Shown: piece after piece, positions 14,409 through 32,000 of the stretch | How the letters are laid out: every line of letters starts with the position of its first letter | How positions within the stretch are numbered: the stretch's first letter is position 1 | From: Candidatus Thorarchaeota archaeon | GTDB taxonomy: Archaea > Asgardarchaeota > Thorarchaeia > Thorarchaeales > Thorarchaeaceae | Length of the DNA stretch: 32,000 bases | Reading direction: 5' to 3' | NCBI GenBank assembly: GCA_003345555.1 | Contig: PRDJ01000010.1 | Span: forward strand, 74,513 to 106,512 | Position numbers and translations under genes: made by a program | The notes under the pieces: model-generated | What the model was told of the DNA's origin: nothing | What the model saw: the letters and a program-made list of their open reading frames with translations, nothing else | Database searches by the model: none

Positions 14409-14513
14409 TGGTGGACCGGGCGGGATTTTTGGGCCCGAAGCTGGAAGTCAGTTCCGGAGAACCCGTGACCTCTTCCATGCCAAGGAAGCGATCTACCACT
14501 GATCTACCGGCCC
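14409..14513 (-). tRNA. tRNA-Ala(GGC) with 30-nt T-loop intron at 56/57
   Basis: GGGCCGG/CCGGTCC acceptor with the G3.U70 Ala determinant, CTTCC-TTGGCAT-GGAAG, ACCA. Removing 14429-14458 restores T loop TTCAAAT (75 nt). Confidence 0.95.
14429..14458 (-). other. relaxed BHB tRNA intron (T-loop, 56/57)
   Basis: Central helix GGGT/GCCC, bulges TC|T and AA|A, inner helix CCGGA/TTCGG; no outer helix. Confidence 0.85.
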
Positions 14514-16255: not shown

Positions 16256-18175
16256 TTATCTCAGCTTCGCACTCTCAGTGACGGTGAGGGCTTTCGTTTC
16301 GATGTTCAACGCCTTGTGGATGGTAGAAGCGAGATTCATGCACTTTGTGGCCTCACCATGACATGTCAGTATCATTTCAGGTACTGGACTCACTCTCTTG
16401 ACGAAACTCAGAATCTGTTTTCTGTCTGAGTGACCAGAGAAGCCTTCCACGGTCTCGACGGTCAAGTTCACCGGGACCACAGTCACGTTGCCTTCGCGAT
16501 TGCGCATCTGTATTTCTTTCCATCCCTTCTGAACTCTGCGTCCAAGTGTTCCTTCGCCCTGGTAGCTAACAAAGACAACTGCATTATTGACATCTGGGGC
16601 TAGGAGTCTGAAATAGTCAACACTGGGACCGCCTGCAAGCATACCTGACGTGGCCATGATTATGCAGGGCTCACCTGCAACGATTTGTTCGCGTTGATCA
16701 GGATTATCGACTTGAGTGAATATCTCATTCAAGAACGGGTTCACGCCTTGATGGAATATCTTCTCCCGTATTTTCTTGCTAAGCGCCTCAGGATGGGTGG
16801 TGTGTATCGCAGTAGCCTGAGCTATCATCCCCTCAATATAGACCGGAACCTTCGGGATACGGCCTGTGGTGACAAGATCCTCTAGCACGAGCATGATTTC
16901 CTGTGCACGCCCAACTGCAAGCACGGGTATGAGCACCTTTCCTCTTCTTTCAATCGTCCTCTTTATCACGGACGCAAACTTCCTTTCGACTTCTTGCCTC
17001 GGCGCCATCTTGTCGGTGGGGTGACCGTACGTGCTTTCTATAATAAGAGTCTCCAATCTCGGGAAGGTGAATGTTGCTGGTTCCAAGAGTCTTGTTCTTC
17101 CGAACTTGAAGTCGCCAGTATATGCGAGATTGTACTGGCCGTCCCCTACATGAAGGTGAACGATTGCAGACCCAAGAATATGACCTGCATTGTGCAATGT
17201 GAGTCTGACATCAGGAGCAATGTCAGTGACCTCACCATAGTTCAGAGGTATGGTATGGATTATGCCCTCCTTGACATCCCGGTCTCTGTAGGGTCTCAAT
17301 TTTCCTTCTCGTTCAGCGACCTCCAAGTAGTCTAGCTGAAGCAGAGTTGACAAGTTCAATGTTGGTGCTGTCATGTAGACAGGACCGCGGTATCCGTACT
17401 TGAAGAGGAACGGAACCATTCCACAGTGATCTAGGTGTGCATGGCTGACTATGACCGCATCCAGCTTGTCTATATTCAGCTCTGGCATATCGAGTCGTGG
17501 AAAGGCCCTGTCGGGTGCTCCCACGTTGACGCCGCATTCTAGAAGAATGTTGGTTTCGCTTGTCTGCAGCAGCATGCACTGCCTACCGACTTCGCGGAAA
17601 CCGCCAAGGGCTGTCAATCTTATCCAGCCATTATCAATGAGAATCGGGCGATGAATTCTCCTGCCTATTTCTCGAAACACTTTGTTGCGGGTCGCAGATT
17701 CAGTCTGTACTATGTAACGTATCTGCTTGATTAGTTTGCTCTCCATCGGTGGTGTTCGCATCACGTTGGGCCGCCAGAATGTCTGTCGCGTGATTTCCCT
17801 GAGGGTAATCCCGTTCCTTCCTATAACGAGGCCGGGTTTCTGAGCTTCGATGACCACTTCGCCGCGTGAATCGTCGAAGTCGATCGACGTAATCTCTGCT
17901 TCTGTGGGCACGAGTTCACGAACTGCTTTCTCAGCGTCCTCATGTGGTAAACGGACCTCAGGTGCTGACCGTACCACGATACGCTTCCTCATCTTGCGTG
18001 CCAGCGCCTTGATCCTGTCGCCGTCATCAAGTAATATCTTGGGAGCTTTCGAATAGATCGCTATCTCAGGTCCCTCATACTCAACTGAGCTTATGGCCGC
18101 TGAGCGAGGCAGAGATTTCATGACTGCCTCTCTAACATCGGTGACTTCCTTCTCTTCTCCGTTCTCAGAATTCAT
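16256..18175 (-). CDS. aCPSF1/FttA KH-domain metallo-beta-lactamase beta-CASP ribonuclease
   Basis: N-terminal KH domains, GGFREVGR, SHAHLDHCG, HNAGHILGS, YTGDF, ESTYG, GFSGHSD and HGE; next to psmB. Confidence 0.96.
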   Translation of the reverse strand: MNSENGEEKEVTDVREAVMKSLPRSAAISSVEYEGPEIAIYSKAPKILLDDGDRIKALARKMRKRIVVRSAPEVRLPHEDAEKAVRELVPTEAEITSIDFDDSRGEVVIEAQKPGLVIGRNGITLREITRQTFWRPNVMRTPPMESKLIKQIRYIVQTESATRNKVFREIGRRIHRPILIDNGWIRLTALGGFREVGRQCMLLQTSETNILLECGVNVGAPDRAFPRLDMPELNIDKLDAVIVSHAHLDHCGMVPFLFKYGYRGPVYMTAPTLNLSTLLQLDYLEVAEREGKLRPYRDRDVKEGIIHTIPLNYGEVTDIAPDVRLTLHNAGHILGSAIVHLHVGDGQYNLAYTGDFKFGRTRLLEPATFTFPRLETLIIESTYGHPTDKMAPRQEVERKFASVIKRTIERRGKVLIPVLAVGRAQEIMLVLEDLVTTGRIPKVPVYIEGMIAQATAIHTTHPEALSKKIREKIFHQGVNPFLNEIFTQVDNPDQREQIVAGEPCIIMATSGMLAGGPSVDYFRLLAPDVNNAVVFVSYQGEGTLGRRVQKGWKEIQMRNREGNVTVVPVNLTVETVEGFSGHSDRKQILSFVKRVSPVPEMILTCHGEATKCMNLASTIHKALNIETKALTVTESAKLR

Positions 18176-18299
18176 CCAGAGTCACTTCTCTGTTGTAGGT
18201 CTGTCGCGTGACGAATCTGGCCTATCGTTTGTCAACAGTCCTCAGCGGGCTGGTCTCAAATGCGGTTCACGAAGTGAACCACGAGTAGGGTAAAACCGA

Positions 18300-18938
18300 T
18301 CAAGGTTTCTTCCAGATCTTCAGTATCTCATCCTTGGGCACTTCTTGGTAGCCGTCTTTGTCAATCACACTCACCAAGATTGAGTTCCCTGTGGCTGCAT
18401 CTCTCTCAATTGCAGTTGCAATAGTTCGCACGGCAAGCTCGATGGCCTTCTTCTTGGGAAGACCATCTTCGTATTCAGCCTCGAGCACACCAAGTGCGAC
18501 CGGGGAACCGGATCCAGTTGCAGTGTACTTGTCTGGCAGGACGGACCCAACAAAGTCGGTGTAGAAGACCTGCGGTCCTTCGTCGTCATAGCCTCCTACA
18601 AGGCATTGCAGCAGATAGCTACCTCGCGCCTGGAACATGATATTGCTTAGAAGGCGTGTCAAGGCCTTGACCCGCATCGGTCTGCCTCTCTGAATCTCGA
18701 ATAGCTTTGATTCAGCTCTCAGGAGATCCATCATCGATTGAGCATCTGCTACGGAGCCTGCAATGGTCGCGCCGATGCGATTAGTAATCTTGTAGATCTT
18801 CTGAGCAGTCTTGTTTGCTATCAGAAAGCCCATCGTAGCTCTCTGATCGCTGGCCAAGACCACGCAATCCTTAGCGATTAGGCCGATTGTCGTTGTTCCA
18901 GTTTTCAATTCCTCTGGTAACTGTGTCTGATGTTCCAT
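18300..18938 (-). CDS. psmB: proteasome beta subunit
   Basis: Propeptide followed by KTG|TTTIG, DQRATMG, TIAGSVADAQ, ATGSGS and RDAATG. Confidence 0.97.
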   Translation of the reverse strand: MEHQTQLPEELKTGTTTIGLIAKDCVVLASDQRATMGFLIANKTAQKIYKITNRIGATIAGSVADAQSMMDLLRAESKLFEIQRGRPMRVKALTRLLSNIMFQARGSYLLQCLVGGYDDEGPQVFYTDFVGSVLPDKYTATGSGSPVALGVLEAEYEDGLPKKKAIELAVRTIATAIERDAATGNSILVSVIDKDGYQEVPKDEILKIWKKP

Positions 18939-19204
18939 CGTGGAATAACTCCCTGTAGGCGAGATTGAGCCTTGTAGAACTAGCGACAGGTGCCCGGTCT
19001 TTACTTACCATTAAAAAGTTTGCCTTATGGTGGAGCTTCTTGTACTGTTGCACCCTTTAGGCAGAGAGCCAACAGAGGTCTCTCCTGGAAGGCACATCAA
19101 GAAGGTATTTCAAGAACTCCGAAGCCTGATGCGAATCCTCTCTTGGCAGGCAGGGAGATATGCTTTGTGTGAGATCTGGCATATCAGTCGAGATTGGTGA
19201 TAGA

Positions 19205-19729
19205 ATGATGAAAGCTACATATGCAGTGGTCATTCTCAGGATTCTCTTGGCACCCGTCTTCTTCTGCGCATTCACGTGGGGCTTCACTGAGCTGGCAATC
19301 TTCCTCTATATCGCAGCATTTGCGTCGGATATTGTGGACGGACGCCTGGCAGAGAGGCAAGGAATAATCCTGCGGTCGACTCTCGAAGCCTATCTTGACC
19401 CATTTGCAGATTTCGTGTTAATCTTCATATCTTTCTATGCATTCACTCTTAGAGAAATCTACCCAGCTTGGATTCTGGTTGTATTCGTCTTCATGTTTCT
19501 GTTCTTCGTCATCTCGTCGAATAATAGAGAGCCCCTTTACGACCCTATGGGAAAATACTATGGGGTGTTTCTCATGACAGCAATTGGCATCACTCTCATC
19601 TTTCCATTTGACCCTGTCACAAATGTCGTTCTACTTCTTATCATTGCATATACACTTGGATTGGTATTCTTTCGAGCAGTCTTCCTATGGAAGCGTCGTA
19701 TGAAGGCACAAGACCCATTAAGGAAATGA
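19205..19729 (+). CDS. CDP-alcohol phosphatidyltransferase family protein
   Basis: SDIVDGRLAERQG...AYLDPFADF matches the DxxDGxxAR...GxxxDxxxD motif with an R-to-E and a G-to-E change; multiple TM helices. Confidence 0.8.
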   Translation: MMKATYAVVILRILLAPVFFCAFTWGFTELAIFLYIAAFASDIVDGRLAERQGIILRSTLEAYLDPFADFVLIFISFYAFTLREIYPAWILVVFVFMFLFFVISSNNREPLYDPMGKYYGVFLMTAIGITLIFPFDPVTNVVLLLIIAYTLGLVFFRAVFLWKRRMKAQDPLRK

Positions 19730-19762
19730 AGATGAAACAAGTAGCATTGCGAGGTAGACGTT

Positions 19763-20308
19763 ATGAGAAAGAGGCGTTTCTGCATGCTTCTTTTGGTAAT
19801 CACGATTACAGGATTGTTTGCCACTGCAGGGATTGTCCTCGCCCTCAATAGTCGTGAGATTGTCCGGGCTGTGGAAGTCCGGAATCCGACCGGATCAAAG
19901 GGCACTGTTTTTGTTGTATTCCGACCCGGTGTCACAGGCTTCAATGAAGACATTGTCAATGCATTCATCCGAGGCTTAATAGCCTCGGATTGGCGAGTCG
20001 AAGTAACAACGAGTTCACAGCAGACTCCAACAAACGTCACAGCATACAACATAATCGTGTTAGGCACCCCAACTAACGGAGGAAAACCACATCAATCGAT
20101 GTTAGATTATCTCGCACGTGTTAACTTCGGAGGAAAGTCGGTCATATTGATTCTCACATCTGGAGGGGACGGACTAGATTCAATGGGCTATTTCAGGGAC
20201 GCAACTATCAATGCAAATGGAACGGTTCTTACTGAGCTTCGTTTCCAGCTTTTTGAAGCGGGTGCAGCAGACAGAGCCTATACTGCCGGAACTGAAGTTG
20301 CAGTATAG
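19763..20308 (+). CDS. flavodoxin-fold protein with N-terminal signal/TM helix
   Basis: Hydrophobic N-terminus after MRKRR; YNIIVLGTPTNGG and GKSVILILTSGG are flavodoxin-like strands. Confidence 0.7.
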   Translation: MRKRRFCMLLLVITITGLFATAGIVLALNSREIVRAVEVRNPTGSKGTVFVVFRPGVTGFNEDIVNAFIRGLIASDWRVEVTTSSQQTPTNVTAYNIIVLGTPTNGGKPHQSMLDYLARVNFGGKSVILILTSGGDGLDSMGYFRDATINANGTVLTELRFQLFEAGAADRAYTAGTEVAV

Positions 20309-20384
20309 ACGGTGCGATAGACAGGTCTTATGGCCTTTGACCAATCACCGGCAACAACCTGCGACTAGATCGTAGTGGCTGACA

Positions 20385-21149
20385 CTAACTAGGAGTCTGC
20401 CCCGTCGTGTTCTCTTTCGGACGCTCATACGTCACGATGAACTTCACCTGCTTTGCATCCGGGTTCAGCTTGAGAACATCTGCCGCAACACCGATTTCGG
20501 CGTATTGGACGCCTTCGAGGTAGCGCGTCTCCTTTGGCATCTCTATGGTAATTGTCTCTTTTGAAGCGGAGACAGTATACTTGTCATTTGGAATGCCGGG
20601 TATTCTTCTCTTGATGACAGCCATGATTTTCTGATTCGGATCTCGCACCATCTCTTTCACGGTCACATCGAAGACCAGAGTCTTTCCCGCTAGAGGCGGA
20701 TTGAAGTCCACTCTCAACTGCCGTCCGAGGTCAGCGGTAATGGTTCCTTGTTCGTTGCCAACTTTCACTTGTTCTCCTTTTGCCGGACGTACTCCAGACT
20801 TCAGAATCTTCGCACGAGGAATCAGTTTGAGCTTCTTTGGGTCTCTTATTCCCGCACCCTTCTCTGGGGGGATTTCGACAGTCTTGCTTTCACCAACCTT
20901 CATGCCGACGAGCTGCTCCTCAAGTGCTGGAAGCAGCCATTTCCATCCGATGGCGACTAGCATAGGCTCGTAACGGTCGTTTTCCTTGAACAACCCCTCC
21001 TTTTTTGCGACTTCCTCCAAAGTAAGATCGAAAATCCGTCCGTCATCCTTTGTTCTAGCTACATAATCGATGTATATCAGATTGCCATCACTGACTACGT
21101 CTGCGTTACCTTGGGGAGTCTCGCCTTTTCGGCTTGCTTTCTCAGCCAT
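20385..21149 (-). CDS. slyD: FKBP-type peptidyl-prolyl isomerase, long archaeal SlyD-like
   Basis: IYIDYVARTKDDGRIFDLT...VEIPPEKGAG...VDFNPPLAGKTLVF. Confidence 0.92.
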   Translation of the reverse strand: MAEKASRKGETPQGNADVVSDGNLIYIDYVARTKDDGRIFDLTLEEVAKKEGLFKENDRYEPMLVAIGWKWLLPALEEQLVGMKVGESKTVEIPPEKGAGIRDPKKLKLIPRAKILKSGVRPAKGEQVKVGNEQGTITADLGRQLRVDFNPPLAGKTLVFDVTVKEMVRDPNQKIMAVIKRRIPGIPNDKYTVSASKETITIEMPKETRYLEGVQYAEIGVAADVLKLNPDAKQVKFIVTYERPKENTTGQTPS

Positions 21150-21210
21150 CTCGATTCCTTCGTTTTACTCAAGGTTGGATTCTGGAGGTCTAATTCTACT
21201 GTTCATAAAA

Positions 21211-21810
21211 TCATTTCCGTTGAGGCGGCAGTACTCCCCTGAGGACATGTATTTCCTCGAAAAAGAGATGCTCCTGAAGTTCGTCGCTGACTGTCAATCC
21301 ATGACCTTCCATTGCAGTCCAGACTCGTTTGACATCACCGAGAGACGAGACAACGACATAGATGGACCCCGCTGGGAGAATGTGCCCTGCCGCTTGATGA
21401 ACGAATTCAACTGCCAGTTCCGTTCCAACGCCTCCCCCTACCAATGCATGATCAAGTTCCGTTCTGAAACCGTCGCTTGGCAGATACGGTGGATTGAATG
21501 CCAGAGCTGAGAAACGGGCGGATGAGCAGATTGATGTCAAGAGATCGGACTGGATGATTGAGCACCTTTCCTCCAAGCCATTCCTTCTTGCATTCTGAAT
21601 GGTGTTTTGGACAGCGGCTATCGAAATGTCTGAGCCTATGACCAATCGGGCTGTTCTTGCTGCATTCAGAGTAATCAGTCCAGTTCCACAACCAACCTCC
21701 AGAAATGTGTCGTGTGGCCGAAGGGCGATTGCCCCGAGGAGGAGGTATGTATCTTCGGATGGCGGATAGACACCCGAGCCAACTGTGATATCAAGAACCT
21801 CGTCTTTCAT
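21211..21810 (-). CDS. HemK2/N6AMT1-like release factor glutamine methyltransferase
   Basis: VYPPSEDTYLL, FLEVGCGTG and FNPPYLP motifs. Confidence 0.92.
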   Translation of the reverse strand: MKDEVLDITVGSGVYPPSEDTYLLLGAIALRPHDTFLEVGCGTGLITLNAARTARLVIGSDISIAAVQNTIQNARRNGLEERCSIIQSDLLTSICSSARFSALAFNPPYLPSDGFRTELDHALVGGGVGTELAVEFVHQAAGHILPAGSIYVVVSSLGDVKRVWTAMEGHGLTVSDELQEHLFFEEIHVLRGVLPPQRK

Positions 21811-22673
21811 TTCGGATTGCTCCTTGGATCGCGGAGCATTCCGTCCTCAATCGTCTCGAATACAGAGTCGGAGAGCGTGACGAGCTCATCCAAACTCAAC
21901 TCCCTCAGGCGCTCATTTCCACTCAGACCGCCCTGACATCTCTTGATGAGCTTCTCCGAGGTCTCATCATCGTAACGGAGATTCCGAAACCAGATTTTCA
22001 AGGCTTTTCGAATTTGCTTGTTCGGGTATGAGTAAATACCCCGTATCAACCAGTGGAATACTGTATCATCAAGAGCAAAGGAACCTGACGTGCGTGGTGT
22101 CATTCTTACTACTGTTGAATCGACCTTGGGCACAGGATAGAATTCCTTGGCTTGGACATTTCTTACTCTTTCAACGTGAGCCCTGTAAGTAACTTCAATC
22201 GTCAGACGCGAGTAGTCGCGCGAACCTGCCGGGGATAGGAGGCGTTCCGCGAATTCCTTCTGGTACATGAGTACCGCGCTCTCGAACCGCAACTCGTCAA
22301 GTAGCCTGAACGTAATAGGGGAGGATATGCTATATGGCAAGTTGGCTACAACCTTGTTGGCCGCCGGCAATCTGACGTCCAAGGCGTCTCCTTCGATGAC
22401 CTCGAGGTTTTCAGACTCTCCCAGCAGGTCTCTAAGAGCGATAGCAAGGGTCTTCTCTTTCTCGATAACGTAGATCTTGCGCACACGCGGCACAATGCGC
22501 CGTGTCAGAGTCCCCAGACCCCCTCCAATCTCTAGGACTGTATCATCAATGCTGAGGTGCGCTGCAATTACGATTTCCTCTGCAATCGAGCCGTTGATGA
22601 GAAAGCTCTGGCCGAGAGTCTTCTTGGGTTTAATGCCGTACTTAGCAAGCAGGGACTTTACGCTTTCTGACAA
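21807..22673 (-). CDS. ksgA: 16S rRNA adenine dimethyltransferase KsgA/Dim1
   Basis: KKTLGQSFL, VLEIGGGLG, VVANLPYSISSP, MYQKEFAERL and FYPVPKVDS. Confidence 0.96.
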   Translation of the reverse strand: MSESVKSLLAKYGIKPKKTLGQSFLINGSIAEEIVIAAHLSIDDTVLEIGGGLGTLTRRIVPRVRKIYVIEKEKTLAIALRDLLGESENLEVIEGDALDVRLPAANKVVANLPYSISSPITFRLLDELRFESAVLMYQKEFAERLLSPAGSRDYSRLTIEVTYRAHVERVRNVQAKEFYPVPKVDSTVVRMTPRTSGSFALDDTVFHWLIRGIYSYPNKQIRKALKIWFRNLRYDDETSEKLIKRCQGGLSGNERLRELSLDELVTLSDSVFETIEDGMLRDPRSNPK

Positions 22674-22698
22674 GAGAGGTCACCAACGCCATGGCCAC

Positions 22699-23292
22699 TC
22701 ATCTGTCGGGTTGTTCCTCGTTTCTAGGAGGAGGTCTGATGAAAAGCCACCGTCTGGTTTCCTCACCTAGCTCTGTAATGATTCTAGCTGTGACGGCTTT
22801 CTTAGGATTCTGCAGTTTCGTGCGGGCGGATATATCATCAAAGCTCTTGAACGGCTCTTTCTTCCTCTCTTCAAGAATAGCCCACATAAGGGTCTGCCCG
22901 ACTCCTGGAAGCAGCTGCAGTGAGTGCATTCTCGTGGTTAGTGGTTGTGCTTCGTTGAAGAACTGAACGAACCTACTCTCGTGCTTTGTGACGATGATTT
23001 CCACAACCAAGGGCAGTTCAGCTAGACTCTCAGGAGTTAGGTCTTCATACACGAGGCGGCGTTTGACATATTCTATCTTGCCGGTGTTTGTCTTTTGAAT
23101 GGCCACTCGTTCCTGTGAATGCGTCCTTGTGCCTGCTGCTGGTACGAGCTCCAGCAGGGTGAAGTGAGATTCGCCAACAGCTTGTATGACAGTCTCTCCT
23201 CTTGTACGAGAGGCACGAAGATGCAGCTTGGGCGGGACGACTGCCAGGACATATGCATGGGTCTCTGACAATCTGGCTTGGGCTCCATCCAT
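22699..23292 (-). CDS. DUF655 family putative RNA-binding protein
   Basis: IQAVGESHFTLLEL...MHSLQLLPGVGQTLMWAILEERKKEPFKSFDDI; conserved rpoF-DUF655-ksgA order. Confidence 0.93.
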   Translation of the reverse strand: MDGAQARLSETHAYVLAVVPPKLHLRASRTRGETVIQAVGESHFTLLELVPAAGTRTHSQERVAIQKTNTGKIEYVKRRLVYEDLTPESLAELPLVVEIIVTKHESRFVQFFNEAQPLTTRMHSLQLLPGVGQTLMWAILEERKKEPFKSFDDISARTKLQNPKKAVTARIITELGEETRRWLFIRPPPRNEEQPDR

Positions 23293-23410
23293 CTGATTTC
23301 TCTCCTGTCACGAACAAGCTGCATTGCGCTTAACAAATGCGATTTGCGATAAAAACCAATCGGGAAGTGAGGAAGAATGTGCGTGTTCAGCGGATAATCG
23401 TGATGGGCGC

Positions 23411-23755
23411 TTATGCCTTTTCAGCTCTACTCTTTTCGACCAAATCAACAATCTCAGCTATCTGTTCATCCGTCACCGAGCTTGACCTCGCATCAAGTAT
23501 CGTCCTCATCTCTTCACGAGTAACAGGTGCGATATTGACTACCTGAACAGCCAGAGACCTAGTGATGTTGTACGTCTTCATGAGCTTCTCAATCACCTTT
23601 GCTGCCACTGCGGGCGGCATCTTGGAAAACGCATTTGCGTGTTCAAGTGTGATTGACTGCTGGAAGGAGAGTTCACCTTCTTTTGCACGCTTGCTAAGGA
23701 CCTTCTTTACTTGAGGAAGACTGATTTCCTCCTCACTAATGATCTCCTTGGGCAT
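23411..23755 (-). CDS. rpoF: RNA polymerase subunit Rpo4 (F)
   Basis: ISLPQVKKVL...ELSFQQSITLEHANAFSK...AVQVVNIAPVTREEMRTIL. Confidence 0.93.
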   Translation of the reverse strand: MPKEIISEEEISLPQVKKVLSKRAKEGELSFQQSITLEHANAFSKMPPAVAAKVIEKLMKTYNITRSLAVQVVNIAPVTREEMRTILDARSSSVTDEQIAEIVDLVEKSRAEKA

Positions 23756-23765
23756 GTCCTAACAC

Positions 23766-24062
23766 TCAGCCTCTGCTTGGTCGAATGTGTTCAGGTCTCA
23801 GAATAAGGGTTCTCATGGCCTTGCCTACCGGCACATCAACGACGACCGCCCTGCCTCTCTTAGCACTTATAACACCCGATCTGCCTTGGTATCTACGATG
23901 CGGCATTCCTTTGTGAAAGCTCGGGTTGATGACTATGTTGACTCGCTGCCCAACCTCATACTCTCTGAGTATGGTACTGAGAGGAGTGATACCTCGCGTG
24001 CGAACGTTCTTGCTCATTAGGCCGCGCGTCCGAGCACGGTAGCCATGACTCTTCTTGACCAT
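23766..24062 (-). CDS. rpl21e: 50S ribosomal protein L21e
   Basis: MVKKSHGYRARTRGLM...GMPHRRYQGRSG...RPEHI. Confidence 0.97.
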   Translation of the reverse strand: MVKKSHGYRARTRGLMSKNVRTRGITPLSTILREYEVGQRVNIVINPSFHKGMPHRRYQGRSGVISAKRGRAVVVDVPVGKAMRTLILRPEHIRPSRG

Positions 24063-24154
24063 GGAGCATCATCCCGCTTGCTGTTGTACCTCAGCTTACC
24101 AAAAGTCGAGGGCACGGTATAGCCGAATTCCACAGAGAGCCCTTTGGTGAACAC

Positions 24155-25531
24155 TTAAGCATTATGGTCCGTTTCCGGGCCATGTATTGAAAGTACCGTC
24201 AGTTCGACGCACACGCACCCCGAATGCAAGATTTCGGACAATGAGGGAGTAGTCCTGCCGTTGTCTCCAGAGATAAGTTCCTTAACATAGGTTCCTCCTT
24301 GAACCTTGAAAGTTCCCTGTATGAGACCGTTGTCTGTGCTGGTGAGTTGTACTTCGTACACCCACTTCTTTCTAACAAGATCTCTCCTACGATGTGATAC
24401 ACGAGTCGGAGTCCTCTGATTTATCTCCACACCCGAGAGACCAGTTTCGGCTTCGCGCAGAGCCTCATCAGTCGGAATCTCGTCAACTCTAATCAGGGCT
24501 AAGTACTCCTTGATATTGTGTGACGCTTCATGCTTTAGTCTCTGTGCGTATTCTCGCTCTGTGTACTGAAGGTCTGAGACTTCTACCTTGCCTGCCGCCT
24601 GCTGATTGATTGTTTGAGTTACAGTGTCAAGATCCAGAGACCGTATCCGGGGTTCGGAGATTTCAACGACAAAAGGGCGGCCCCCGCCTAGCATCAGTGC
24701 GTCGATATCCTCCCTGCCCGCTGCATGGAACTTGAAACGGCTGCCATTTGCAGCGGTTTGAACGGGAATTCCGACATACTCCGAGACAGAGTCGGGATAT
24801 CTCCTGCCCGTGCCGCCACACGATTCACAGCCTTTCCCCCTGCATGCGGTGCAATCCCATCTGCTCTGAGGAATGCCTCTTACGAGCTTCCGATAGCATC
24901 CGTAGACGAATAGCGGGTTGATTTGGAGGTTCAAGGAATCCAATGCCATATCATAGACGATAACAAGCTCAGGACGCTCAAAGTTGGCTTCTCTACCGAG
25001 CGCTCTCTGGGCCTGTTTTCCCAACTCTCGGTTGAGGTCTCCTCTGAGAGGTTCTCCTCGAAGAAGGCCGTGACGTGCTCTCAGCTCGTCTTCCCGCTCT
25101 GCGACGCTCGGTATGGGCGTACATCCGACCAAGAAAGTGTCGAATTCGATGTCTCTTGTCTCCTCAACGATTCTCCCTACTATCGCAGGGATTCTGTCAA
25201 AGATGCTCTCTCCATTGACGAAACAAAGATAACACTTCTCAACTGTATCGTGCTCAATTCCATTCTTGCTGGCGAGAATCCTGGCAGGTTCGAACATTCC
25301 ATTGCCGGCCAGATTGGTGAGAAGTCTCACGCCGCTTTCTCTTTCACCAGACTTCAACAGCTCATCAGCTTTCATCGAAAGCAGGAGCTTAATCGACCTG
25401 CCGCGTTCACGATTCGAGGTACCAGTGCTCAGCCACGCAAACTGACGACCTAAGCACTGATCACAGAGAGGATACTGGCTAAGTAGCTGGTCCGCGACTT
25501 CCAAGGGATCTCTCATTTGTGAATCTCCCAT
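24155..25531 (-). CDS. pus10: tRNA pseudouridine 54/55 synthase Pus10
   Basis: LCDQCLGRQF, YRKLVRGIPQSRW, FHAAGREDIDALMLG and QGGTYVKELISGDNGRT. Confidence 0.96.
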   Translation of the reverse strand: MGDSQMRDPLEVADQLLSQYPLCDQCLGRQFAWLSTGTSNRERGRSIKLLLSMKADELLKSGERESGVRLLTNLAGNGMFEPARILASKNGIEHDTVEKCYLCFVNGESIFDRIPAIVGRIVEETRDIEFDTFLVGCTPIPSVAEREDELRARHGLLRGEPLRGDLNRELGKQAQRALGREANFERPELVIVYDMALDSLNLQINPLFVYGCYRKLVRGIPQSRWDCTACRGKGCESCGGTGRRYPDSVSEYVGIPVQTAANGSRFKFHAAGREDIDALMLGGGRPFVVEISEPRIRSLDLDTVTQTINQQAAGKVEVSDLQYTEREYAQRLKHEASHNIKEYLALIRVDEIPTDEALREAETGLSGVEINQRTPTRVSHRRRDLVRKKWVYEVQLTSTDNGLIQGTFKVQGGTYVKELISGDNGRTTPSLSEILHSGCVCVELTVLSIHGPETDHNA

Positions 25532-25553
25532 CTGGCAGGACCTCTCTCTGCCA

Positions 25554-26798
25554 TCAACCGCGGGTATGCCACATAAAGCTGTTCTTCGATATAGGGCTGA
25601 GTTGGCGAATCACCCGGAGACCAAGGCGGATCGCGCGAGGGTCAGTGAGAAGGCTTCTTATGATTCCCCATTGCATATCCATATCGCCTTCTCTTTCGAT
25701 TTTCTGAAGCAGGCCAAGCTCACTCGTTCCTCGTACTAGAACATCCATGCCTTGGTCCGACAGTGACACCAATGCTCTTTGTGCCAGAAACATGGCCCGA
25801 AGGTTACTCATAAACAGAGAGCGCCAGGCCATCTGGTATCGTTCGAGAAACCTCTCTGAACAATCTTTCTCTGAGATTGCCAATGATGCAACCTTGCCTG
25901 CGATAGTTCCGGCCATGCCGCCGATAATCACGCCTCCTCCAGTTGTGGCCTTCACCATTCCCGCAGCGTCTCCTGCCACTAGTATTCCCGACGCGTATGT
26001 CTTTCTGATTGGCATGCCGACAAGAACTGTGCCCCCGAAGGTTCTATCAATCGAAGCTCGTGAGAATCTCTCACTCATGATAGGATGATGTTCAATAACT
26101 GCATTCAAGCGCGTCTTTGCTGCACTGAATGCTGCCAGACCGACTCTTGCTCGGCCATCTCCAAGAGGAATGTTCCATGCAAAGAACCCCGGGGCGACTT
26201 GTCTGCCATAATACATCTCGGCGACATTATCATCAACCTCCGCTCCCCGCATCTCATACTGATAGGCAGGATACTTGTTTGTTCTTGGCACAATTGGCAG
26301 TCCAACCGACTTTGAGAGTCTGCAGACAGCTCCTTCCGCATTGATTACGATAGCGGCGCGATAGTGCTCTGTTGCTCCACCATGTTGTACCGATACTCCG
26401 GTTATCTTGCCATTCTGCATATTCAGTGAACGAACCTGGGCCCCTGTGATGACGACCGCTCCGCTATCTTGAGCCCTGTCCGCAAGCCACATGTCGAACC
26501 TGTGTCTGTCCACAACAACAGCCTCGCGACGACCCCGCTCGATTAGCAGAGAGTTGCCCGAGGGTGAATAGACTCTTGCTCCGCGTACCGTGTTCAGAAT
26601 CACATCTTGAGGCGGCTTTAGTCCGAGTGACCTTAGACCTGACAGGCTAAGAAGGCCTGCGCAGTGGTCCGGTTCTCCAATGCTGCGATGTTCTTCAAGA
26701 ACAATTACATCGTGACCGTTCCCTGCTATTGTGGCTGCAGCAAGCAAACCGGCTGGTCCTGCACCTACAACAATGGCATCGTGGTCTAGACTCGTCAT
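25554..26798 (-). CDS. geranylgeranyl reductase family FAD-dependent oxidoreductase
   Basis: DAIVVGAGPAG Rossmann motif, HCAG, DRHRFD, GFFAWNIP, VAGDAAGMVKATTGGGV. Start set at ATG 26798 (the track start overlaps pth2). Confidence 0.88.
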   Translation of the reverse strand: MTSLDHDAIVVGAGPAGLLAAATIAGNGHDVIVLEEHRSIGEPDHCAGLLSLSGLRSLGLKPPQDVILNTVRGARVYSPSGNSLLIERGRREAVVVDRHRFDMWLADRAQDSGAVVITGAQVRSLNMQNGKITGVSVQHGGATEHYRAAIVINAEGAVCRLSKSVGLPIVPRTNKYPAYQYEMRGAEVDDNVAEMYYGRQVAPGFFAWNIPLGDGRARVGLAAFSAAKTRLNAVIEHHPIMSERFSRASIDRTFGGTVLVGMPIRKTYASGILVAGDAAGMVKATTGGGVIIGGMAGTIAGKVASLAISEKDCSERFLERYQMAWRSLFMSNLRAMFLAQRALVSLSDQGMDVLVRGTSELGLLQKIEREGDMDMQWGIIRSLLTDPRAIRLGLRVIRQLSPISKNSFMWHTRG

Positions 26799-26864
26799 CG
26801 CATCTAGTAGAGCTACTAGCACCTTTTTATCTGTCGTCTTACTTGGCTCCACAGTGATAACCAG

Positions 26865-27245
26865 ATGGCAGCCAACGCGACGCCTAGGCTCTTCAGATAC
26901 AAACAGGTAATTGCAGTGAGAACTGACTTGGATATGAGCCGAGGGAAGATTGCAGTTCAGGTGGCACATGGCGCTCTGAGCGCTGCAGAGCGTGCAAGAG
27001 TCACTCGTCAGGATGTCTGGAAGGCCTGGTTGGATGAGGGACAGAAGAAGGTTGCCGTGAAAGTTGCATCAGAGAAGGATCTGCTGGATCTGAAACGTCT
27101 AGCCGTCGTTCACAGGCTGCCAAATGCGTTGATTCGGGACGCGGGGATGACCGAGCTTCCACCCGGTACAATCACGGTTGTTGGAATTGGTCCTGCCCTT
27201 TCCGAGGAAATCGACAAGGTGACTGGCAGTCTCAAGCTGCTTTGA
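26865..27245 (+). CDS. pth2: peptidyl-tRNA hydrolase Pth2
   Basis: KQVIAVRTDLDMSRGKIAVQVAHG...GQKKVAVKV...IRDAGMTELPPGTITVVGIGP...KLL. Confidence 0.97.
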   Translation: MAANATPRLFRYKQVIAVRTDLDMSRGKIAVQVAHGALSAAERARVTRQDVWKAWLDEGQKKVAVKVASEKDLLDLKRLAVVHRLPNALIRDAGMTELPPGTITVVGIGPALSEEIDKVTGSLKLL

Positions 27246-27254
27246 GGGAATGCA

Positions 27255-28601
27255 GTGCAGCCCGCACATCCTCTTGAACAGAGCATCGGCATGGAGTTCT
27301 ACTGCACCGACACTCCCGGCATCGGTGGGCGTCTTAGAAGTCGTTTCGAGGACTTTGTGGTTGAGGAAATCACGCCAACAGGTAACATCTTGGAAGTGAA
27401 AGAGTGGCCGACTGAGGCCATGGTCGGTGAGAAAGAACCTATCCAAGGTACGCCATCCAAGTATGTCCAGCTCACTGTCCAGAAGATGGGTCTGTCTACT
27501 CTGGACCTAGCGACTATTGTGGCCGCTGCCACAAAGGTTCCGAGGCATCTGGTGAGCTATGCTGGCCTCAAAGACAAACGGGCTGTTACAGTACAAGTAA
27601 TGTCTCTGCCTGCACATGCATTCAAATCGTTGGAGCAGACTCATCTATCAAGAATTGCAATCCGTGCTCCTCAGTATGTTCGTCGCCCAGTAAGAGTTGG
27701 CGATTTATGGGGTAACCGTTTCACCGTGTTGCTTAGAGGTATGGAAGCCGACTGTAACACTGCACTTGCCTTGGCCGATTCTCTTGGGCGTCAATCGATA
27801 CTCAACTACTTTGGAGTGCAGAGGTTTGGTGTCACTAGACCGTTCACATACCTCATAGGAAAGTCATTGGTGAAGAAAGACTACGATGGAGCGGTCCGAA
27901 TGATGCTCTCAAGAGTGATTCCCGAAGAGCAAGTCGAGTCGGTCGAGAGGCAACTAGGGGCAGCTGAGGACTTGGCTCCCGAAGAGGTTTCTTCAGACTC
28001 GTCGTCAAATGGGGTGTTGTACGAACGGGCAGTAGCACAATATCTTGCTAAGCATCCGGGTGACTACTTTGGAGCCATGACCAAGGTCGCTCCCCGGGTC
28101 TTAACAATTCTAGTACATTCGTATCAATCCTACCTGTTTAACCGATTGATAAGTCTGCGTGCAAAGAATGGCCTATCGATCCATGAGCCAGAGCCCGGCG
28201 ATTTCTTAATTCAGCTTGACCAGACACACTCGGGAAGAGACTCTTGGTTGTTTGTCACCGAGCGAAAACTTGAGGAATGCAGGAGATTGGTTGAGTCGGG
28301 CAGTCATGGCCTTGCAGCTCCCGTGCCCGGATACTCAACCAAGATACCGCCATCCAGACAATCAGATTTGCTGAAGCAGATTCTGAGGGCAGAGGGCCTC
28401 TACCTGAGGGAGTTCAGAAACGTTCAGGTGAGGTCGTTAGATTCGCCCGGCGGTCTACACCTGGTGTCAATCCAGCCAATTGGGATGAAGGCACAATGCG
28501 ATGGTGACTGCCTCATGCTTAGATTCAGTCTCAGAAAAGGTTCCTACGCCACTGTTGTTCTTCGTGAACTAATGAAGGCCGATCCAACGGGCCTTGCCTA
28601 G
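27255..28601 (+). CDS. truD: tRNA pseudouridine 13 synthase TruD
   Basis: EDFVVEE, YAGLKDKRAVTVQ, GNRFTV, NYFGVQRFG, YQSYLFN and GSYATVVLRE. Confidence 0.96.
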   Translation: MQPAHPLEQSIGMEFYCTDTPGIGGRLRSRFEDFVVEEITPTGNILEVKEWPTEAMVGEKEPIQGTPSKYVQLTVQKMGLSTLDLATIVAAATKVPRHLVSYAGLKDKRAVTVQVMSLPAHAFKSLEQTHLSRIAIRAPQYVRRPVRVGDLWGNRFTVLLRGMEADCNTALALADSLGRQSILNYFGVQRFGVTRPFTYLIGKSLVKKDYDGAVRMMLSRVIPEEQVESVERQLGAAEDLAPEEVSSDSSSNGVLYERAVAQYLAKHPGDYFGAMTKVAPRVLTILVHSYQSYLFNRLISLRAKNGLSIHEPEPGDFLIQLDQTHSGRDSWLFVTERKLEECRRLVESGSHGLAAPVPGYSTKIPPSRQSDLLKQILRAEGLYLREFRNVQVRSLDSPGGLHLVSIQPIGMKAQCDGDCLMLRFSLRKGSYATVVLRELMKADPTGLA

Positions 28602-29185
28602 CGTCTGGCTTGTCTTCGAGTGAAGTCCTTCATCCTCTGCTCGAAATCATCGGATGACGCCTTTGACTTCTTGGGGGTTCCTTCCTCTTGGTACTGGAAT
28701 ATCGCCTGCTCTTCCATGACTGCAGTCACGATTCGTCTCAGGTCTTCGAGAGAGTATCCAATCCTGGGTCTGTCCTCTGCGCGGAGCATGACTACATTCT
28801 CCCTCGATCCGTCCGGAAGATACAGACTATTCACGCCGGTCTCAATTGCTGGATGAATGAGCTCCCTCACGAGTTTCCTGAGATTGGCTGGCCGTTCAAG
28901 AATAACAACTTCACCGTATGTTGCTCTCAATTCCTCAAGCAGGTCAGGCAGTGATAGTAGGATGTCCCTGCCTTTCTTATTGACAACCAGAACAAGCCTG
29001 CTTGATACGTTTAGAGCCCCGAAGAGGGTGAGGTCCTCAATGGCCGGGAACTGCTCTTGTCGTGTGAGAATCCATTTCGAGAAATCGACATCGAATTGAG
29101 TTATCTGTCCGCTGTCGAGTTTCTTTTGGCAATCAGAGCACAAGATGTCAGAATCAAGGTCGGCTACGCACACTGGCAGATGCAT
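28598..29185 (-). CDS. archaeal NusA-like (NusA2-type) KH protein with N-terminal Cys motif
   Basis: MHLPVCVADLDSDILCSDCQKKLDSGQITQFDV resembles the archaeal NusA-paralogue N-terminus. Start set at ATG 29185. Confidence 0.7.
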   Translation of the reverse strand: MHLPVCVADLDSDILCSDCQKKLDSGQITQFDVDFSKWILTRQEQFPAIEDLTLFGALNVSSRLVLVVNKKGRDILLSLPDLLEELRATYGEVVILERPANLRKLVRELIHPAIETGVNSLYLPDGSRENVVMLRAEDRPRIGYSLEDLRRIVTAVMEEQAIFQYQEEGTPKKSKASSDDFEQRMKDFTRRQARR

Positions 29186-29260
29186 TATAGGATTCCTCGC
29201 CCATGGAGTGCGCCAAGTGTGGCCGGCTTCCAGGCGAGGATCATGCAATACTCAAGTTAC

Positions 29261-29572
29261 TCATCGTGCGAGAGTTATATCTATAGTCGAGACGTTGAGG
29301 TCGGTACCCTTCTCTGTTTGTACAGTTGTAGTACCAATCGTGATTGACGCGACTTTGAGTTCCGATATGAATCGGTGTCGTGTTATTTCAGCAACATCCA
29401 CTGCTCTACTAATGAGACGTCCTCTCGCCTTTATGGTGACTTCTGTAGCTCCTTTGTTGAAGAGGGTCACGCAGGCCAGAACGTAACTCATTACATTCTT
29501 GGCTCCGACTAAGATGGTCGATTTTGGCTTGCTCTTGCCAAGGTCTTCACTGTCGGTGTTCTCCTCTGTCAC
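29261..29572 (-). CDS. albA: chromatin/RNA-binding protein Alba
   Basis: ILVGAKNVMSYV...IKARGRLISRAVDVAE...VSTIDITL. Confidence 0.96.
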   Translation of the reverse strand: MTEENTDSEDLGKSKPKSTILVGAKNVMSYVLACVTLFNKGATEVTIKARGRLISRAVDVAEITRHRFISELKVASITIGTTTVQTEKGTDLNVSTIDITLAR

Positions 29573-29876
29573 CAGAAGCTTACCAACCTGCCGTCACTCA
29601 TTTGGGCATATGCTTTACTCGAGGCGCTTCTAATATTGATTTCGATTGCCAGATGCGCATATCCGGCGTGACCGCATTAATCATCGCATCACGGGACCGA
29701 AGCAGTCTCTCGGCAAATGACTTTAGAGACTTGATATGACCTTTGTCGACTCTAACATTCGTGTCATCTAGGACCACGACTGGACTGCTTACCGATTCGG
29801 TGTTCCAGATTCGAGCTCACCATTGCGGAAGGCTTTTTTCTGACAATCGGGGCCTCTGAAATGGGATCTATGAGTA

Positions 29877-31142
29877 ATGGTAAGATTGACCTTTCTGGGC
29901 TCATGCAGAGAGATAGGACGTTCCGGTTTCCACCTTCAGGAGCATAATGAAAGCATCCTGATAGACTACGGTGTGAAGCTTCTAGAGAACCCTGTCTTCC
30001 CGAGTCGTGTGCCTACCGATGACCTTCAAGGAATCGCACTCACGCATGCCCATCTTGATCATTCAGGTGGGCTTCCTCTCTTGCTCACTCACGATGACGT
30101 CTCACTCTTTTGTACGCCTGCTACACGAGACTTGAGCACAGTCCTGCTTGACGATATGTATGAGCTCTCAAAGGCGCGTCTGCCGTTTTCAGGCAAAGAC
30201 ATCGCACGACTCGAACGACAGTGCCAGCCAACCGCGTATGAAGAGACGATTCCGCTCGGACGCCATTTCGAAATCACTCTATTCAACGCTGGTCACATTC
30301 CAGGTAGTGCGATGGTATCCGTAAGGTGTGATACAAAACGGATACTATTCACGGGTGATTTCAACTCGATTGAAACACAGCTGAATGCCGGAGCTAGGAA
30401 GAATCTGCCCAAGCACGACATCGTGGTGACCGAGAGTACCTATGCTCAGAGGGTCAATCCGAAGAGAGAAGAAATCGAAGAAGAGTTCATTCAGTCAGTC
30501 ACGGAGACCTTACAGCGTGGGGGTACTGTACTCATTCCTGCTTTTGCTGTGGGACGCAGCCAAGAAATAATGTGCATCTTCGAGAAATACAACTTGCCTG
30601 GAAAGTACACGGTCTATGTTGATGGTCTGGCCAGAAAGGTCAATGAAGTTGTGATTAAGCACCCAGGCTACATTGCATCTCCACAAGCGTTCGAGAGAGC
30701 AGTTGAAAGGACTCGGATTGTCTATGACGACCGGGACCGTTTCACGGCAATGAAGAAGGGTGGAGTAATCATCTCTCCCGCAGGGATGCTCAAGGGTGGT
30801 CCCTCGCATCTCTACTTCAGAATGCTCCACGACGACCCGAGGAACTCCATAGTCCTTGTGAGCTTCCAGATTCCGGGAACGCCTGGAGCCGAATTGCTTG
30901 CCAAGCGCAAAGTGACGGTGAATAACAAACTCTTTGATGTGGCCGCAGATGTCAGATTTCACCATCTGAGCAGTCATTCTGATGCTGATGGCTTGATGGA
31001 CGTCTTGGAGAAAATTCCCGGGGATCCAGAATTCTACTGTGTGCACGGCGAACCTGATTCATGTGACGCACTGGCCGAGAAACTAGGCAACATTGGAAGA
31101 CGAGCACACGTGCCAGAGACAAACGATGCAATAGAGGTCTAG
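29877..31142 (+). CDS. metallo-beta-lactamase beta-CASP RNase lacking KH domains (aCPSF2-like)
   Basis: GSCREIGRSG, THAHLDHSG, NAGHIPGS, TGDF, ESTY, SSHSD and VHGE. Confidence 0.92.
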   Translation: MVRLTFLGSCREIGRSGFHLQEHNESILIDYGVKLLENPVFPSRVPTDDLQGIALTHAHLDHSGGLPLLLTHDDVSLFCTPATRDLSTVLLDDMYELSKARLPFSGKDIARLERQCQPTAYEETIPLGRHFEITLFNAGHIPGSAMVSVRCDTKRILFTGDFNSIETQLNAGARKNLPKHDIVVTESTYAQRVNPKREEIEEEFIQSVTETLQRGGTVLIPAFAVGRSQEIMCIFEKYNLPGKYTVYVDGLARKVNEVVIKHPGYIASPQAFERAVERTRIVYDDRDRFTAMKKGGVIISPAGMLKGGPSHLYFRMLHDDPRNSIVLVSFQIPGTPGAELLAKRKVTVNNKLFDVAADVRFHHLSSHSDADGLMDVLEKIPGDPEFYCVHGEPDSCDALAEKLGNIGRRAHVPETNDAIEV

Positions 31143-31149
31143 TACGAAA

Positions 31150-31362
31150 CTACTCTTCGGCCTCAGGCTTTGCTTCCACAACTTGGCACTTCACTTGCTG
31201 AAGAATGTCCTCGGCTTGCTGGGGCTCGACAATCAATGTGTAGAGATACTTAGGAGTCCGAAGCTTTAGCTTGACCTGATTAGCACCTCTCCTGACTCGA
31301 CACTCAGTCGCGCTCTCTGTCATCTCGAGGAATCGTGCCACATCCGTGATTATTCTTGGCAT
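31150..31362 (-). CDS. rpl38e: 50S ribosomal protein L38e
   Basis: MPRIITDVARFLEM...KLKLRTPKYLYTL matches the L38e pattern MPxxIxDxxxFL...KxRxxxYLYTL. Confidence 0.9.
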   Translation of the reverse strand: MPRIITDVARFLEMTESATECRVRRGANQVKLKLRTPKYLYTLIVEPQQAEDILQQVKCQVVEAKPEAEE

Positions 31363-31582
31363 TTGTAGGCCTCTTGTTGTTGTACAAGTGACCGGGAGCG
31401 ATTCCCTTCGCTCCAGCCCTTCAGTACTTGCCTTGACATTCGCATTATAAGAATGTCGGAATGTCGTGCTGAGATGCTTACATACGTTAGGACTGCGTCC
31501 TACTCCAAGACCCGATGAACGCGCTTGAGTTTTTGTTCTGTGACGAGCTCCCTAGATGAGGAATGTGGTGGGCAGGGAGGGA

Positions 31583-31613
31583 ATTCCGATAGACAGGGCG
31601 ACCCTGGACTATT
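31583..31613 (-). other. BHB tRNA intron (T-loop, 59/60), 31 nt
   Basis: Outer helix is the T stem, central TTCG/CGGA, bulges AG|A and AT|T, inner ATAG/CTAT plus hairpin CAGGG-TCG-CCCTG. Confidence 0.88.
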
Positions 31614-31628
31614 CTCGAACCCTCGACA

Positions 31629-31661
31629 GAGGCGGGCAGACTTACGCGAGGGCATCTGCCT
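31629..31661 (-). other. BHB tRNA intron (variable loop, 44/45), 33 nt
   Basis: Central GGCG/CGCC, bulges GA|A and TC|T, inner GGCAGA/TCTGCC, 2-bp outer helix AC/GT. Confidence 0.88.
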
Positions 31662-31731
31662 TCCGCCGTGTGAAGGCGGCATCATAACCGGGCTAGATCA
31701 CCTGCCCTAGACTGGCGAAGGAATCGGCTGG

Positions 31732-31740
31732 ATATTTAAG
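31732..31740 (-). promoter_or_regulatory. TATA box of tRNA-Val(CAC)
   Basis: CTTAAATAT on the minus strand at -25 to -33. Confidence 0.5.
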
Positions 31741-31887
31741 AATGATGGCCGGCTATGGGGAGATTAGCATGAAGAACAGAACGAAGTCTAGCGGCATCAC
31801 ATATTAGAGAGAAAGAAACGCGGGCTAGGAAGAGTGAATGAAAGCGGCACGAGAACAGCTACCACAGGCCGCGTTCTTCAAAGTCGA

Positions 31888-31998
31888 CTAAACATCATCG
31901 ATAACTGTTATCCGCCTGCTTCTGATAAATAGAATCGCGATGGCAAGAATGATGACTGTGCCTACGCCCCCTGCCAATATGGGAAGAGGCAATTGAGT
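31888..31998 (-). CDS. C-terminus of a membrane-anchored surface protein (partial, enters from window end)
   Basis: Manual translation TQLPLPILAGGVGTVIILAIAILFIRSRRITVIDDV*: a TM helix plus basic stop-transfer residues. Confidence 0.6.
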   Translation of the reverse strand, partial: TQLPLPILAGGVGTVIILAIAILFIRSRRITVIDDV

Positions 31999-32000
31999 GG

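What the first reader, a model, noticed from the sequence alone, without database searches (positions are those of the whole stretch)
31566..31707. Double-intron tRNA-Val(CAC): 44/45 and 59/60 introns, each with a well-formed BHB
The 142-nt gene resolves into a 78-nt tRNA after removing 31629-31661 and 31583-31613. The T-loop intron uses the T stem itself as its outer helix. The variable-loop intron carries CGCC, which mimics the 5' anticodon-stem strand and pairs with positions 39-42, so the anticodon stem must be open in the precursor. Inference: folding is ordered and splicing-dependent. The other Val isoacceptor in the window (GAC) is intron-less, so intron gain or loss is gene-specific.
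Basis: partly seen in the sequence, partly recalled or inferred. Interest (0 to 1): 0.8.

Follow-up and report, generated by a model that had tools for sequence, protein, structure and literature searches.

The report
Two-intron valine tRNA gene, Asgard archaeon
This is a real valine tRNA gene of an Asgard (Thorarchaeota) archaeon cut into three pieces by two short enzyme-spliced introns, a layout already published for Asgard archaea; the one fresh lead is that in relatives these introns come and go together with the surrounding tRNA sequence, as if the gene body were swapped.

Summary
Observation confirmed. Removing 31629-31661 (44/45) and 31583-31613 (59/60) on the minus strand gives a 78-nt tRNA-Val(CAC); of 55 alternative cut sets only this one has two full bulge-helix-bulge (BHB) central helices. 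The host is a Thorarchaeote with a two-subunit EndA (specificity loop present) and RtcB. Two congeners and five metagenome contigs share the layout. It is a known kind: multi-intron tRNAs, including two-intron Val(CAC) and a Val intron after base 46, are published for Asgard archaea; 29 of about 40 tRNA genes found here have introns; this scan noted similar genes in other Thorarchaeota. The CGCC 'mimic' is forced by BHB geometry. The anticodon stem must open for cleavage, but no obligatory order between the introns is predicted: the motifs use separate exon parts and each position occurs alone in orthologues. Extra lead: across 74 orthologues at one syntenic locus, introns sit at ten positions; the closest relative lacks both and differs at 10 exon bases; two other sister genomes keep 85-95% identical flanks but differ at 15 exon bases. 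This suggests gene-body replacement as a route of intron turnover (inferred). No RNA data.

The parts
31566..31707 (-). pre-tRNA-Val(CAC) gene, 142 nt, encoded ACCA end
31662..31707 (-). exon 1, positions 1-44 (with 17a and 20a); anticodon CAC at 31672-31670; 39-42 (31667-31664) is the exon strand of central helix 1
31629..31661 (-). intron 1 at 44/45, 33 nt; inner helix 31660-31654 with 31641-31635; CGCC partner 31634-31631 (a full CCGCC copy of 27-31 at 31635-31631)
31614..31628 (-). exon 2, positions 45-59; 54-57 (31619-31616) is the exon strand of central helix 2
31583..31613 (-). intron 2 at 59/60, 31 nt; CGGA partner 31588-31585; T stem is the outer helix
31566..31582 (-). exon 3, positions 60-76; U68 pairs with A5 (family consensus is C5-G68)
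31732..31739 (-). probable archaeal TATA box, 25-32 nt upstream of G1, conserved with its CATTC context in the three congeners
   Evidence: sequence, alignments; function inferred
31150..31362 (-). rpl38e downstream, with its own TATA-like site at 31445-31451; in relatives the order is rpl40e, tRNA-Val(CAC), rpl38e, beta-CASP gene
31800..32000 (-). upstream stretch resembling the end of the insert that the sister genome G003 carries between rpl40e and the tRNA (NosD/beta-helix gene); the contig ends here and rpl40e ends contig C15
   Evidence: homology judged from the alignment only

Best explanation
A functional single-copy tRNA-Val(CAC) gene of a Thorarchaeote with two ordinary protein-spliced BHB introns. 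The 142-nt precursor is transcribed from its own promoter (inferred). The two-subunit EndA, whose catalytic subunit carries the loop that gives broad specificity (sequence shown, activity inferred from Aeropyrum), cuts each motif in its two 3-nt bulges, and RtcB joins the exons (inferred). For the 44/45 cut, positions 39-42 pair with the intron instead of 28-31, so the anticodon stem is open at that step and closes after ligation (geometry shown, folding predicted). The 59/60 motif is built on the intact T stem. The motifs are independent, so either can go first; a kinetic preference for 59/60, which needs no refolding, is plausible but not shown. Both introns were present in the ancestor of the genus and were lost in the sister species G003, probably by replacement of the gene's 3' part or body (inferred).
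For: Only the double cut gives a tRNA. BHB pairing far above shuffles. One CAC anticodon arm found in the genome. Same layout in 2 congeners and 5 metagenome contigs; across 6 distinct precursors helix columns are fixed while the cut-site bulge bases and loops vary, 96% of cells paired against 45-53% when slid, two compensatory pairs. EndA paralogues of 188 and 232 aa; the 188-aa one aligns with the Aeropyrum pernix catalytic subunit at E 1e-45 and keeps the loop with its lysine, the Tyr/His/Lys catalytic residues and the C-terminal Trp (loop role in PMC3241643; Asgard (alpha-beta)2 EndA with loop L1 in PMC5829648). RtcB present. Thorarchaeota identity from record titles of congeners. 59/60 also in Trp, Gln(CUG), Lys(UUU) and 44/45 also in Val(UAC) of this genome.
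Against: No RNA evidence. The strict 44/45 motif is about 2 kcal/mol above the whole ensemble and its outer helix is 2 bp. Covariation rests on 6 related sequences, both compensatory changes are window-versus-rest, and the 44/45 helices never vary. EndA activity and subunit pairing were not tested.
Confidence: 0.9

Rival explanations
1. Obligatory order: one intron has to leave before the other motif can form.
For: In the minimum-energy precursor, exon 45-53 pairs with 30-37 and so takes the 5' strand of the T stem, which could delay the 59/60 motif until 44/45 is gone, or the reverse. Ordered removal of independent motifs is documented in Cyanidioschyzon (PMC3728597), and nested archaeal introns need an order (same paper, citing others).
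Against: The motifs use exon 37-47 and 49-65, are not nested, and form together in one structure 3.2 kcal/mol above the minimum; each central helix keeps nearly the same probability with or without the other intron. 44/45 alone (G011) and 59/60 alone (G012, G052, G079, G089) occur in orthologues.
Confidence: 0.12
2. Intron turnover at this locus happens by swapping the tRNA gene body (or its 3' half) for an allele from another lineage, so exon haplotype and introns travel together. This concerns history and is compatible with the best explanation.
For: G003 is the sister of this genome in two independent trees (13 syntenic proteins, support 1.0; RpoB/RpoA1, 0.997) yet lacks both introns and differs at 10 exon bases (1 at position 5, 9 at 49-68, none in 6-48), against 5 for the more distant G001 and 0, 1, 1, 2, 3, 7 for six other tRNA pairs. 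Sisters G089 and G087 keep flanks 127/150 and 69/73 identical but differ at 15 exon bases and in intron site, while G089 is 1 base from the more distant G079. All 6 alleles with U68 carry the 59/60 intron, 66 of 68 with G68 do not, and U68 needs 5 changes on the tree. G075 and G056 hold a stranded 5' fragment plus an inverted full copy with a different intron state at this locus.
Against: Genomes are draft bins (G097's RpoB falls outside its genus); deep branches are weak; kin are not independent. Arg(CCU) also shows 7 exon differences, so T-arm turnover is not unique to intron change. Val(UAC) gained or lost its 44/45 intron with only 2 exon differences, so precise gain also occurs. No donor, integrase or att remnant was found next to the gene in this genus.
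Confidence: 0.55
3. Pseudogene or assembly artefact: the inserts are not spliced.
For: No RNA reads; DNA runs laid on the stretch did not span the gene.
Against: Perfect cloverleaf after splicing, compensatory A5-U68 and A50-U64 pairs, conserved promoter-like site, conserved layout in seven other assemblies, no second CAC gene found.
Confidence: 0.02
4. One of the two introns was copied from another tRNA gene of this genome (Thermoproteales-type transposition).
For: Val(UAC) has a 44/45 intron only in this genome among three congeners with the gene recovered, and shares two short words with intron 1. A 30-nt intron family does recur across Pro, Arg, Ala and Tyr genes here.
Against: With a structure-preserving null the Val(CAC)/Val(UAC) likeness gives p = 0.053; intron 2 versus Gln(CUG) p = 0.14 and Lys p = 0.54; the two introns are unrelated to each other (p = 0.84); no second copy in the genome.
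Confidence: 0.2

Closest known systems
Multi-intron tRNA genes of Atabeyarchaeia, Freyarchaeia and Jordiarchaeia (PMC11291895; bioRxiv 10.64898/2026.10.13.758758)
   Same: Asgard host, short BHB introns at non-canonical sites, several per gene, (alpha-beta)2 EndA, repeated gains and losses. Supplementary Data 4 of PMC11291895 lists a two-intron Val(CAC) and a Val(UAC) intron starting at gene base 47, the same 44/45 site (that gene is L015).
   Different: Host class is Thorarchaeia, which the preprint's main text never names, with a lower load (about 31 introns in about 40 genes found). The pair 44/45 plus 59/60 was seen only in this genus among 74 orthologues. The preprint found almost no intron families shared between tRNA types; this genus has one candidate family.
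Non-canonical and multiple BHB introns of Thermoproteales and other TACK archaea (reviewed in PMC4090602, PMC4033280)
   Same: 59/60 and 45/46 are listed sites; up to three introns per gene; loop-bearing (alpha-beta)2 EndA.
   Different: There, near-identical introns recur across tRNA types; the two introns here have no close relative in other tRNAs of the genome.
Caldiarchaeum subterraneum tRNA-Thr(GGU) with introns at 24/25 and 45/46 (PMC3293823)
   Same: Two non-nested introns, one at the anticodon-stem/variable-loop border; intron state differs between close relatives; recombination proposed as the route; stranded tRNA fragments nearby.
   Different: There a recombinase-bearing insert and a fragment flank the gene; here no such element or fragment lies beside the gene in this genus, and the exon sequence itself is exchanged.
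Multi-intron pre-tRNAs of Cyanidioschyzon merolae (PMC3728597)
   Same: Independent BHB motifs in one precursor; two of them were removed in either order.
   Different: Eukaryote; order measured there, only predicted here.

Membership tests
Archaeal BHB tRNA intron | Removal restores a standard cloverleaf | tested here: met
Archaeal BHB tRNA intron | 4-bp central helix between two 3-nt bulges, cut after the second bulge base | tested here: met
   4/4 pairs at both boundaries; 3/4 (relaxed) for 59/60 in orthologues
Archaeal BHB tRNA intron | Flanking helices h (exon) and h' (intron) | tested here: met
   44/45: 2 and 7 bp; 59/60: 5 and 4 bp
Archaeal BHB tRNA intron | Covariation of the motif across homologues | tested here: inconclusive
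   two compensatory pairs in 6 related sequences, 12/500 shuffles as high; central-helix partner follows the host stem in five 44/45 introns, CGCC, CTCG, CGCG, which fits but is few cases
Archaeal BHB tRNA intron | Host encodes EndA able to cut non-canonical sites, and a ligase | tested here: met
   two EndA paralogues, loop and catalytic residues in one; RtcB; sequence only
Archaeal BHB tRNA intron | Excision in vivo or in vitro | not testable with these tools
   no RNA holder listed
Nested, obligatorily ordered multi-intron pre-tRNA | One motif forms only after another intron is removed | tested here: not met
   separate exon segments, both motifs in one fold, probabilities nearly independent; by prediction only
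Thermoproteales-type transposed intron family | Close sequence relative in another tRNA type of the same genome | tested here: not met
   best p = 0.053 and 0.14 with structure-preserving null; no other copy
Integration-site (att) scar of a mobile element | Direct repeat of a tRNA end and an integrase beside the gene | tested here: inconclusive
   none in G001, G002, G003 flanks; this genome's contig ends 293 nt upstream; fragments exist at the locus in G075 and G056 but with no integrase hit
Split or permuted tRNA | Halves on separate transcripts or in reversed order | tested here: not met
   three exons colinear within 142 nt

The most novel reading that the evidence does not exclude
In Thorarchaeia, tRNA introns spread and vanish largely by replacement of the tRNA gene body with an allele from another lineage while the flanks stay in place; this gene and its intron-less sister allele are one caught case. 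With the Pro(CGG) intron that appears to have moved from 56/57 to 39/40 in the same genus, this would give concrete routes for the question the 2026 Asgard census calls open (how intron DNA arrives), though not the first origin of intron sequence.
Probability: 0.4. Interest if true: 0.62.

Novelty: new member of a known kind. Interest (0 to 1): 0.3.

Why it matters
As a structure it is one more example of a published Asgard trait, useful mainly because ARAGORN and Rfam miss it and the genome would otherwise seem to lack Val(CAC). [quoted passage not shown] The comparative set matters more than the single gene: one syntenic locus with ten intron positions and at least 42 state changes across the genomes on the tree, with sister genomes differing in both exon haplotype and introns, is a place to test how introns are gained and lost.

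Tried and rejected
Expression: no RNA holder listed. Laying four DNA runs on the stretch gave no contig spanning the gene; only 5' pieces of relatives' alleles whose loose ends run into the 44/45 intron; not used as evidence. Other cut positions: enumerated; none of the printed alternatives has two full central helices. A shared 11-mer between intron 1 and the 58/59 intron of G007: p = 0.86, rejected. An Ile(GAU) gene as donor of G003's T arm: G003's own Ile gene has a different T arm, rejected. A second Val(CAC) copy in G003: the extra match is not a tRNA. Viral carriers: three scans gave no intron-bearing allele, only one unrelated intron-less tRNA-Val fragment. Two metagenome hits (L116, L119) are unrelated. 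The sigma-70 promoter scan does not apply to archaea. IQ-TREE timed out; FastTree used, so supports are SH-like and no topology test was run. Marck and Grosjean 2003 and Sugahara 2007 are not held; I cite them only through reviews. Only parts 1-5 of 7 of the preprint were read and its supplements are not held, so I cannot say whether it includes Thorarchaeia genomes. My genome census is ad hoc and may miss genes.

Full report
Observation. On the minus strand, 31707-31566 splits into exons of 46, 15 and 17 nt and inserts of 33 and 31 nt. ARAGORN reports tRNA-Val(CAC), 78 nt, only when both inserts are removed; it and Rfam miss the gene in the raw window. With 17a and 20a in the D loop the junctions are 44/45 and 59/60. 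Shuffling each intron 20,000 times gave a motif as good as observed in 0 and 0.075% of cases. My unbiased genome-wide BHB scan recovered the same cuts on its own.

Anatomy. At 44/45 the central helix is exon 39-42 with intron CGCC, the inner helix is 7 bp and the outer helix only 2 bp. At 59/60 the central helix is 54-57 with CGGA, the inner helix 4 bp and the outer helix the T stem. Four other 44/45 introns carry CGCC, CTCG, CTCG or CGCG, each matching its own host stem. A TATA-like site 25-32 nt upstream is conserved in the three congeners.

Host and machinery. The genome has 2.28 Mb and is 93% complete. It encodes two EndA paralogues. The 188-aa one aligns with the Aeropyrum pernix catalytic subunit (E 1e-45) and keeps the specificity loop with its lysine and the catalytic Tyr, His and Lys; that loop gives broad specificity in A. 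pernix (PMC3241643) and is reported for Asgard EndA (PMC5829648). RtcB is present. About 40 tRNA genes were found, 29 with introns; 59/60 recurs in Trp, Gln(CUG) and Lys(UUU), 44/45 in Val(UAC), and Trp also has two introns.

Conservation. The same two introns occur in G001, G002 and five metagenome contigs. In six distinct precursors 96% of predicted pairs hold, against 45-53% when slid; two pairs change on both sides (T stem A50-U64, and one inner pair of intron 2); variation falls on loops and on the bulge bases at the cuts. The sample is small and related, so this is modest support. The 59/60 central helix is 3/4 in all five orthologues, so the strict form here is not required.

Folding and order. 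Predicted anticodon-stem probability is 0.08 with intron 1 and 0.998 without; but ensembles held to the stem (-58.2) or to the strict motif (-57.6 kcal/mol) are about equal, and the minimum-energy fold is a slipped 5-bp register. So the stem must be open when the 44/45 site is cut, and the precursor probably moves between forms (inference). The two motifs use exon 37-47 and 49-65, form together 3.2 kcal/mol above the minimum, and barely affect each other (0.67 vs 0.68; 0.45 vs 0.57). Each position also occurs alone in orthologues. I therefore reject an obligatory order; a preferred order, as measured for independent motifs in Cyanidioschyzon (PMC3728597), remains possible.

History. The gene lies at one syntenic locus across the family, between rpl40e and rpl38e beside a beta-CASP gene. 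Among 74 orthologues, 20 have no intron and the rest use ten positions; parsimony needs at least 42 changes on an RpoB/RpoA1 tree (a few positions were set by hand, and draft bins add noise). The closest relative, G003, is sister to this genome in two independent trees but has neither intron, so both introns most simply date to the genus ancestor and were lost in G003. That loss came with 10 exon differences, none in positions 6-48, more than the 5 seen against the more distant G001 and more than in six other tRNA pairs (0-7). A clearer case is G089 versus G087: flanks 85% and 95% identical, exons different at 15 bases, intron sites different, and the G089 exons 1 base from the more distant G079. 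All six U68 alleles carry 59/60, in three genera. tRNA exons normally change more slowly than spacers (established knowledge), so I infer replacement of the gene body by a foreign allele. No donor or integrase was found, precise gain or loss also occurs (Val(UAC)), and no topology test was run; I put this at a little better than even for these cases and lower as a general rule.

Comparison with what is known. Three complete Asgard genomes have introns in 92-95% of tRNA genes, over half with several (PMC11291895); its table lists a two-intron Val(CAC) and a Val(UAC) intron at this same 44/45 site. A 2026 census reports 2.2 inserts per gene in focal families, 0.91 in others, repeated gains, BHB enrichment, no general route of arrival and no splicing shown in an Asgard cell (10.64898/2026.10.13.758758). 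59/60 is a listed site in archaea (PMC4090602). A recombination route was proposed for a two-intron Caldiarchaeum tRNA (PMC3293823). Earlier notes of this scan describe like genes in other Thorarchaeota; they are not counted as evidence.

Verdict. Real, correctly described, and a new member of a known kind. Interest 0.30: low for the structure, lifted a little by the comparative lead on intron turnover.

Noticed in passing
L165:1501-1608 (G000), L177 (G003), L168 (G001), L171 (G002): The tRNA-Pro(CGG) intron seems to have moved within the gene: a 30-nt intron at 56/57 in G001 and G002, and a 30-nt intron 22/30 identical without gaps at 39/40 in G000 and G003 (structure-preserving null p = 0.0005). 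Similar 30-nt introns sit at 56/57 in Arg(GCG), Ala(GGC) and Tyr of this genome (p 0.001-0.005, not corrected for many comparisons). A candidate transposing intron family in an Asgard genus.
   Followed up: partly
L137:2750 (G089) versus L149:11641 (G087): Sister genomes with near-identical flanks but a different tRNA-Val(CAC) body and intron site.
   Followed up: partly
L156:1568-4859 (G075), L157:4307-7951 (G056): At the Val(CAC) locus a stranded 5' fragment follows rpl40e, then genes with helix-turn-helix repeats, then an inverted full copy with its own promoter-like site and a 23/24 intron; G056 also has two 3' fragments.
   Followed up: partly
L181 (G000 C63:4191-4304), L182, L264: Val(UAC) has a 44/45 intron in this genome but not in G003; G001 has a D-loop insert instead.
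   Followed up: partly
window 2002-2124 (+) and 5486-5608 (-): Both tRNA-Gly genes carry related D-loop introns of about 45-48 nt; ARAGORN miscalls the first as Leu and truncates the second.
   Followed up: partly
window 14409-14513 (-): tRNA-Ala(GGC) with a 30-nt 56/57 intron, missed by ARAGORN and Rfam.
   Followed up: partly
L175, L167, L166, L173; L261, L260: In Pro(GGG) the T-arm sequence changes together with the T-loop intron between congeners; Arg(CCU) has 7 exon differences between G000 and G003, mostly in the T arm, with the intron site unchanged.
   Followed up: partly
L017:1503, L018:1501: The Val(CAC) orthologue of two 1.4-Mb Asgard genomes has two abutting short introns at 45/46, a better candidate for obligatory order than this gene.
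   Followed up: no
window 16256-31362: Cluster of RNA-processing and translation genes (FttA, FKBP, methyltransferases, Pus10, TruD, beta-CASP, rpl38e) with order conserved across the family.
   Followed up: partly
L273 (viral contig, 594-660): An intron-less archaeal tRNA-Val(CAC) fragment lacking the first bases, like an attachment site; not of the Thorarchaeote type.
   Followed up: no
L210 (G097): RpoB of this bin falls among another genus, a hint of contamination.
   Followed up: no
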